Shown here piece after piece: positions 141-44,037 of a stretch of DNA of 64,000 nt (the stretch's first letter is position 1; the number at the start of each line of letters is the position of its first letter). The stretch comes from Leucoraja erinacea (taxonomy: Eukaryota), in NCBI RefSeq assembly GCF_028641065.1, contig NC_073414.1, positions 3,534,001 through 3,598,000 of the forward strand, read 5' to 3'. Both the position numbers and the translations under genes were made by a program. The notes beneath the pieces were generated by a model. It worked only from the letters and a program-made list of their open reading frames with translations. It did no database searches and had not been told where the DNA came from.

Positions 141-44037
<43,897 letters not shown>

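What the first reader, a model, noticed from the sequence alone, without database searches (positions are those of the whole stretch)
33132..33159. Minimal hammerhead-ribozyme-like core in the dominant repeat; intact sense-strand copy in ACTN4 intron 18
Seen: CUGAAGA-A-GGGU(CUCG)ACCC-GAAAC-GUC, i.e. a CUGANGA box, a stem II hairpin, a GAAA box, a self-complementary ACGU in place of stem III, and a GUC triplet. A second subfamily (50756-50783; weaker copy at about 10848) changes stem II to GGGU(UUCG)GCCC and ends GAAACGUU, preserving the hairpin. This copy sits directly downstream of a Penelope GIY-YIG C-terminal peptide (32760-32915), which ties the many related copies in the window to PLEs. 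Known: PLE terminal repeats carry minimal hammerheads with a palindromic stem III that cleave as dimers. Inference: intact sense copies could cut the ACTN4 pre-mRNA upstream of the 19a/19b choice. Most other sense intronic copies have core changes (3276 GAAAUGUC, 10101, 39774, 42107 GAAACAUC). Caveats: there is an extra A before stem II, and only about 2 bp of obvious stem I.
Basis: partly seen in the sequence, partly recalled or inferred. Interest (0 to 1): 0.7.

Follow-up and report, generated by a model that had tools for sequence, protein, structure and literature searches.

The report
Penelope hammerhead passenger in ACTN4 intron
The motif is the known miniature self-cutting-RNA sequence at the end of a Penelope-type jumping gene, one of about 60,000 equally intact copies in this fish genome, and it is likely a harmless passenger in the actinin-4 intron rather than a switch that cuts the gene's RNA.

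Summary
The motif is real. It is the minimal hammerhead at the 3' end of a truncated Penelope-like element (PLE) inserted at 32762-33217, with an 8-nt target-site duplication, in ACTN4 intron 18. The exact 28-mer has 15,042 genomic copies, and 60,645 copies have an intact core. It follows the GIY-YIG endonuclease end in 19 of 19 other loci. The extra A is a normal trait of these ribozymes, not a defect.

The proposed cutting of ACTN4 pre-mRNA is not supported. In 1.64 Mb of oriented gene sequence, intact cores are not depleted on the sense strand (26 sense, 20 antisense). Catalytic bases mutate like the flanks (6.4% vs 6.7%). A gene this long is expected to hold about one intact sense copy. 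Helix I is 2 bp, the double-hammerhead fold is predicted about 16 kcal/mol worse than two monomers, and the nearest intact partner is 63 kb away. Published PLE hammerheads do not cut as monomers, and one needs the PLE protein. Cleavage itself was not tested. This scan has already noted the family many times in this genome, and similar intronic cases in other genomes.

The parts
32754..32761 (+). Left target-site duplication (8 nt)
   Evidence: same 8-mer at 33218-33225
32762..33217 (+). 5'-truncated Penelope-like element insertion (endonuclease end, 3' UTR/pseudo-LTR, hammerhead, tail)
   Evidence: bounded by the duplication; homologous to other copies
32760..32915 (+). C-terminal remnant of the PLE GIY-YIG endonuclease; in-frame stop at 32874-32876
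   Evidence: 65,475 candidate matches, best others 70-85% identical; continuous with an RT + GIY-YIG frame in long copies
32916..33131 (+). Pyrimidine-rich 3' UTR / pseudo-LTR; 33130-33131 is the 5' strand of the 2-bp helix I
   Evidence: sequence; subfamily flanks
33132..33159 (+). Minimal type I hammerhead core: CUGAAGA 33132-38, extra A 33139, stem II 33140-43/33148-51, GAAA 33152-55, ACGU palindrome 33155-58, predicted cut after 33159
   Evidence: architecture as in PMC4209133
33160..33217 (+). PLE tail beyond the cut site; this copy lacks about 9 nt against the family profile; 33160-63 can pair with 33140-43 in a competing fold
33218..33225 (+). Right target-site duplication
31861..32007 (+). 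ACTN4 exon 18
   Evidence: translation and splice sites
38125..38218 (-). Antisense family copy in the same intron, able to duplex with the sense copy
38912..38992 (+). ACTN4 exon 19a (EF-hand part)
   Evidence: weak EF-hand hits below cut-off
39279..39344 (+). ACTN4 exon 19b
50756..50783 (+). Intact core of the younger subfamily, 6.7 kb past the ACTN4 stop codon (44034)

Best explanation
The motif is the minimal hammerhead at the 3' end of a 5'-truncated Penelope-like retrotransposon copy in ACTN4 intron 18, and it is likely a neutral passenger that does not appreciably cut the pre-mRNA. Shown: the insertion, its duplication, its link to RT + GIY-YIG elements, the copy numbers, neutral decay of the core, and no sense-strand depletion. 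Inferred: the copy was made by target-primed reverse transcription that started in the tail about 60 nt past the cut site, so from RNA uncut at this ribozyme. The motif was likely maintained only in active elements, where it would need a second copy and probably the PLE protein to fold. In the host intron it has a 2-bp helix I, a competing hairpin, no near partner and a damaged tail, so it is predicted to stay off.
For: PLE link: 19 of 19 other peptide loci carry the motif 213-650 nt after the match start; 13 of 15 long-frame loci carry it after the frame; RVT_1 over cut-off and GIY-YIG below cut-off (E 6e-4) in L053. Abundance: 60,645 intact cores; about 414 copies per Mb, about 900,000 if extrapolated; 1.03 intact sense copies expected in ACTN4's 74 kb, 2 seen, P=0.27. 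Orientation in 1.644 Mb: all copies 325 sense, 355 antisense (p=0.27); intact 26 and 20 (p=0.46; 95% interval of sense share 0.41-0.71). Decay in 331 near-full copies: catalytic non-CpG 211/3310 vs flank 634/9483 (p=0.57); G12 lost in 92 of 331, like other CpGs. Folding: P(helix I)=0.000 in 4 of 4 windows; double hammerhead -6.1 vs -22.2 kcal/mol for two monomers; median gap 14 kcal/mol in 45 intact copies. Literature: single min-HHR inactive, dimers weak (PMC4209133); anole PLE hammerhead cuts only with the PLE protein, uncut RNA is the main template, no RNA-seq ends at the site (PMC11167929).
Against: No cleavage assay was possible. ViennaRNA ignores tertiary and protein-assisted folding. 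Lack of depletion does not exclude cutting: introns cut by a slow hammerhead can still splice (PMC2995048 passages). With 46 intact copies, depletion under about 30% is not excluded, and gene strands were inferred from Pfam exon hits. Copies with both core boxes were more frequent on the sense strand (89 vs 63, p=0.042 uncorrected), and G12 loss was lower in sense (23% vs 33%, p=0.065); this is mostly one gene and one of about ten tests, but it is not explained. The insertion is shared with at least two other organism labels, and the state of the orthologous core could not be read.
Confidence: 0.85

Rival explanations
1. The copy is silent alone but is cut in cells where the PLE protein or abundant family RNA is present (protein-assisted or trans-dimer cleavage), giving occasional cuts in host introns that splicing tolerates.
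For: PLE protein switches on the anole hammerhead in vitro (PMC11167929). Young elements with 447-686 aa open frames exist. Family RNA is abundant (depth about 4,300 over the core in run X23). Slow intronic cuts can be tolerated.
Against: This copy's tail, the likely protein-binding part (inferred), has a 9-nt deletion. The dimer is held by only 4 + 2 + 2 bp. Only 1 of 57 duplication-defined 5' ends lies at the cut site.
Confidence: 0.09
2. The copy was co-opted to cut ACTN4 pre-mRNA and bias or gate the 19a/19b choice, like the conserved intronic hammerheads of amniotes.
For: Intact sense core 5.8 kb before exon 19a. The insertion is shared by three organism labels. A precedent is proposed for RECK-type intronic hammerheads (PMC6155905 passages).
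Against: About a 10% chance for any 6.9-kb intron. Helix I is 2 bp. The cut would lie upstream of both alternative exons, so it cannot favour one by position alone. Exon 19 alternative splicing arose in chordates (PMC4550062 passage), long before this insertion (inferred). No family-level sign of selection.
Confidence: 0.03
3. The motif is vestigial as a ribozyme even in the active elements of this lineage and is kept as a protein-binding or DNA-level signal (palindromes for template switching).
For: All subfamilies, old and young, have a 2-bp helix I. No excess of two-sided stem II change. 276 of 680 copies are in divergent pairs, many joined in or near the motif. PLEs without hammerheads thrive (PMC8557442 passages).
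Against: 0 of 11 non-CpG catalytic columns vary between subfamilies, against 15 of 54 tail columns (p=0.055). Changes fall on loop II, a wobble-tolerant pair and N17. This rival is compatible with the best explanation for this copy.
Confidence: 0.25

Closest known systems
Minimal type I hammerheads (min-HHR) in pseudo-LTRs of metazoan PLEs (Cervera and De la Pena 2014, PMC4209133; main text parts 1-2 of 4 read, supplements not read)
   Same: CUGANGA and GAAA boxes, nucleotide between 9 and 10.1, G10.1-C11.1 pair, palindromic 15.2-16.2, no helix III, mostly single dispersed copies from truncated PLEs.
   Different: Helix I is 2 bp (4-5 bp in the Schistosoma motifs; 2 bp reported for Drosophila virilis) and helix II 4 bp (6-8 bp there). 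Copy number is 60,645 against 2,000-9,000, counted with a different descriptor. Cartilaginous fish are not named in the parts read.
Poseidon PLE of Anolis (Frangieh et al. 2024, PMC11167929; parts 1-2 of 4 read)
   Same: Hammerhead just before the tail; copies end past the cut site at two lengths (296 short, 72 long of 368).
   Different: Different PLE clade: here a Cys-rich linker lies between RT and endonuclease. There the ORF starts in stem II; no such start was found here, but no 5'-complete element was examined.
Neptune-type EN+ PLEs (Craig et al. 2021, PMC8557442; passages)
   Same: RT then Zn-finger-like linker then C-terminal GIY-YIG; heavy 5' truncation, inverted 5' copies, 30-40 bp tail.
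   Different: No tree was built, so Neptune and Nematis are not separated.
Conserved intronic hammerheads of amniotes (RECK etc.; PMC6155905 passages) and the CPEB3 intronic ribozyme (PMC10919898, search listing only)
   Same: Sense-strand ribozyme motif in an intron.
   Different: Those are conserved loci (their full helices are recalled). This is one of tens of thousands of neutrally decaying repeat copies.

Membership tests
PLE minimal hammerhead | Core boxes CUGANGA, GAAA, NUH | tested here: met
PLE minimal hammerhead | Extra nucleotide between 9 and 10.1; G10.1-C11.1 pair | tested here: met
   A33139; G33140-C33151; trait listed
PLE minimal hammerhead | Palindromic 15.2-16.2 allowing a dimeric helix III | tested here: met
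   ACGU 33155-33158
PLE minimal hammerhead | Helix I of 4-5 bp (usual form) | tested here: not met
   2 bp here; 30 of 47 family cores have 2 bp and 4 of 47 have 3-4. A 2-bp variant is published for D. virilis.
PLE minimal hammerhead | Located in the terminal repeat of a PLE | tested here: met
   19 of 19 and 13 of 15 loci
PLE minimal hammerhead | Compensatory covariation in stems | tested here: inconclusive
   only one-sided U-A to U-G changes; no two-sided excess at the one pair tested; no other species' families available
PLE minimal hammerhead | Self-cleavage as a dimer or with protein | not testable with these tools
   folding unfavourable
EN+ Penelope-like element | RT and C-terminal GIY-YIG in one frame | tested here: met
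   L053, 574 aa: RVT_1 29.8 bits (cut-off 29.6), GIY-YIG 20.6 bits (cut-off 22.6)
EN+ Penelope-like element | 5' truncation, inverted 5' copies, tail | tested here: met
   138 divergent pairs; two tail lengths
Neptune clade | Zn-finger-like linker between RT and endonuclease | tested here: met
   CNxxxCxxC in L051-L053; Nematis shares it
Neptune clade | RT phylogenetic placement | not tested
   no reference PLE proteins on hand
Non-LTR retrozyme | Tandem units each with a hammerhead | tested here: not met
   single copy; of 32 spacings between same-strand intact cores, 2 are under 1 kb; definition from bioRxiv 10.64898/2026.07.22.740005
Domesticated intronic hammerhead | Locus conserved across species beyond its flanks | tested here: inconclusive
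   insertion shared, contigs break inside the repeat

The most novel reading that the evidence does not exclude
This lineage's hammerhead has a built-in off state (2-bp helix I, and a stem II strand that pairs instead with the four bases after the cut site, kept through subfamily changes), which lets about 60,000 intact cores sit in host genes. The PLE protein switches it on, so cells that express the element would nick thousands of host introns, including ACTN4 intron 18.
Probability: 0.06. Interest if true: 0.65.

Novelty: new member of a known kind. Interest (0 to 1): 0.12.

Why it matters
As found, it matters little: a known motif in a known kind of element. The useful results are negative and quantitative. 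A genome can carry about 60,000 sequence-intact minimal hammerhead cores with no detectable selection against them on transcribed strands, which fits the view that they are inert without a partner or the PLE protein. If protein-switched cutting of host introns were real, it would be a new cost of PLE activity and would make the open question of what PLE hammerheads do in vivo testable.

Tried and rejected
Rfam scan: no hammerhead family at E<=10.

RNA reads: no RNA holder listed by the index. Raw reads of X20, X22, X24 (1-6% of each run) and X23 gave no place where many molecules begin or end. This is uninformative: exon 18 depth was 0-2, reads over the motif come mostly from other copies, and oligo-dT and single-cell libraries are poor at catching 5'-OH or cyclic-phosphate ends.

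A 3' splice site just before the core (pyrimidine tract + CAG, as in D. virilis): no GT..AG joint among the 15 best joints shown in either lay (12 and 322 more not shown); left open.

Another family with a full helix I: the CTGATGA search gave 1,034 hits, and the 100 listed look like point variants of the same family.

Cut-site pile-up of 5' ends: 1 of 57 duplication-defined ends at the site and 39 of 57 near the start of the core. Duplications were found for only 57 of 404 solo copies and were sought only near the motif. Alignment starts show 17 at columns 33-37 against 9 and 6 beside, confounded by CpG decay.

Heterodimer with 42107: its flank offers a 4-bp helix I, but it is locked in its own inverted repeat (from the sequence; not folded).

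Luense et al. 2016 is not held; known only through a review passage. No claim of absence from print is made; 5 literature searches were run.

Full report
Observation. The 28-mer at 33132-33159 is as described. The window is G000:C38:3534001-3598000 of a 2.19-Gb genome. A skate- or ray-like host is my inference, not a tool result. The exact 28-mer occurs 15,042 times (7,516 +, 7,526 -; control 0). The pattern with intact core and stem II and any loop occurs 60,645 times. Rfam does not detect it.

Host gene. Translation shows an alpha-actinin. Exon 18 ends at 32007, exon 19a is 38912-38992, 19b is 39279-39344, and the stop is at 44034. Exon 1 lies 30 kb before the window; exon 2 and duplicated exons 8 were found. 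On the exon at 27770 the C9 paralog is much closer to chicken actinin 1sjj (110 bits vs 85 to ACTN4) than the window gene is (93 vs 87). ACTN1 and ACTN4 keep 19a/19b (PMC4550062 passage), so ACTN4 by elimination is reasonable; no tree was built.

The element. The copy spans 32762-33217 between 8-nt direct repeats. It holds the end of a GIY-YIG endonuclease (with an in-frame stop), 216 nt of pyrimidine-rich UTR, the core and a 58-nt tail with a 9-nt deletion. The peptide has 65,475 candidate matches. All 19 other loci fetched have the motif downstream (within 6 edits): 18 at 213-379 nt and 1 at 650 nt from the match start. Of 15 loci chosen for long open frames (447-686 aa), 13 carry the motif after the frame; most are 94-98% alike, so the family was active recently, and they mostly carry the UUCG/GCCC form. 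L053 scores RVT_1 over cut-off and GIY-YIG just under it, with a Cys-rich linker as in Neptune or Nematis PLEs (PMC8557442 passages). The family shows PLE habits: 138 divergent pairs among 680 copies and two tail lengths (296 and 72 of 368), matching the two RT start sites reported for the anole element (PMC11167929).

Is it a hammerhead? It has the four traits Cervera and De la Pena list for metazoan min-HHRs, except rich covariation; the extra A is one of them (PMC4209133 parts 1-2). Between subfamilies of about 4-19% divergence the changes fall on loop II, on U-A to U-G pairs and on N17. 0 of 11 non-CpG catalytic columns vary, against 15 of 54 tail columns (p=0.055): weak support for selection in active elements. 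A two-sided change at the second stem II pair occurs 106 times, against roughly 340 expected from single-change rates in 67 local copies, so there is no excess. Helix I is 2 bp in the majority sequence of every subfamily and in 30 of 47 intact cores.

Could this copy cut? Predicted helix I probability is 0.000 in all four windows; stem II is 0.006-0.44 and competes with pairing of 33140-43 to 33160-63. The double hammerhead evaluates to -6.1 kcal/mol against -22.2 for two monomers and -26.9 for the best dimer; the median gap over 45 intact copies is 14 kcal/mol, the minimum 2.9. The only other intact sense core in the gene is in intron 1, 63 kb away. Antisense copies can duplex with it (-90 kcal/mol for the one in intron 18; random intron pieces average -37, best -69), though they are transcribed later and loop cost is ignored. 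These energies omit tertiary contacts and proteins. Published assays agree: single motifs inactive, dimers weak, and the anole motif needs the PLE protein.

Selection test. I fetched 1.6 Mb from seven long genes whose strands follow from CUB or spectrin exon hits and added 44 kb of ACTN4. All copies: 325 sense, 355 antisense (p=0.27). Intact: 26 and 20 (p=0.46; interval 0.41-0.71), or 27 and 21 with the upstream ACTN4 part. Strong purging of sense copies is excluded; under about 30% is not. In 331 near-full copies of the 680, catalytic non-CpG bases differ at 6.4% and flanks at 6.7% (p=0.57), and G12 is lost in 28%, like other CpGs. Against this reading: copies with both boxes were 89 sense and 63 antisense (p=0.042 uncorrected), largely from one gene (22/66 vs 9/72), and G12 loss was 23% vs 33% (p=0.065). 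The direction is opposite to depletion and I treat it as probable chance. At 13.8 intact cores per Mb per strand, ACTN4 expects 1.03 and has 2 (P=0.27); intron 18 alone has about a 10% chance. A caveat: introns cut by slow hammerheads can still splice (PMC2995048 passages), so neutrality does not prove absence of cutting.

RNA and other organisms. The read lays were uninformative on cleavage (see Tried and rejected). Contigs bridge the 5' junction by at least 31 letters in organisms A (X1), D (X14, exactly 31) and E (X18), so the insertion is shared. The 3' junction overlaps are 28-29 letters, below the tool's criterion, and contigs break in the repeat, so orthologous cores were not read.

Verdict. 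A real but ordinary PLE minimal hammerhead; likely a passenger (0.85). Co-option for ACTN4 splicing is unlikely (0.03). Earlier notes of this scan describe the same family in this genome (119 notes fit the look-up) and similar intronic cases in other genomes; they are unchecked AI notes and were used only as leads. Interest 0.12; new member of a known kind.

Noticed in passing
window 33127-33135 and 39769-39777; family-wide: The start of the motif, TCAGTCTGA, is itself a near-palindrome; the divergent pair at 39670-39860 is joined at it. 276 of 680 sampled copies are in divergent pairs.
   Followed up: partly
seven genes + ACTN4, 1.644 Mb: Slight sense excess of copies with both core boxes (89 vs 63, p=0.042 uncorrected) and less G12 CpG decay in sense (23% vs 33%, p=0.065); mostly one gene; unexplained.
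   Followed up: partly
window 33100-33131; all subfamilies: Different pyrimidine-rich UTRs all end in CAGT just before the core, resembling a 3' splice site as reported for D. virilis Penelope; no supporting joint seen.
   Followed up: partly
G000:C38:3504443 (L229): A second exact, intact sense core about 350 nt into ACTN4 intron 1.
   Followed up: no
window 14885-14975 and 15170-15255 (approximate): Duplicated exon 8 (8a/8b) of the actinin gene.
   Followed up: no
window 51539-52816: GC-rich tandem repeat with long open frames in several phases, past the ACTN4 3' end.
   Followed up: no
window 56130-56335: Long near-perfect inverted repeat (about 205 nt), scoring as a spurious miRNA hairpin.
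   Followed up: no
L180:2267 (-): A lone hammerhead-like motif with a different stem II (CTGATGA-A-GGC..GCC-GAAA), possibly another family.
   Followed up: no
L058 (G000:C28:30135700-30142200): Cluster of many short pieces of the motif and tail, several about 66 nt apart, around a long PLE copy.
   Followed up: no
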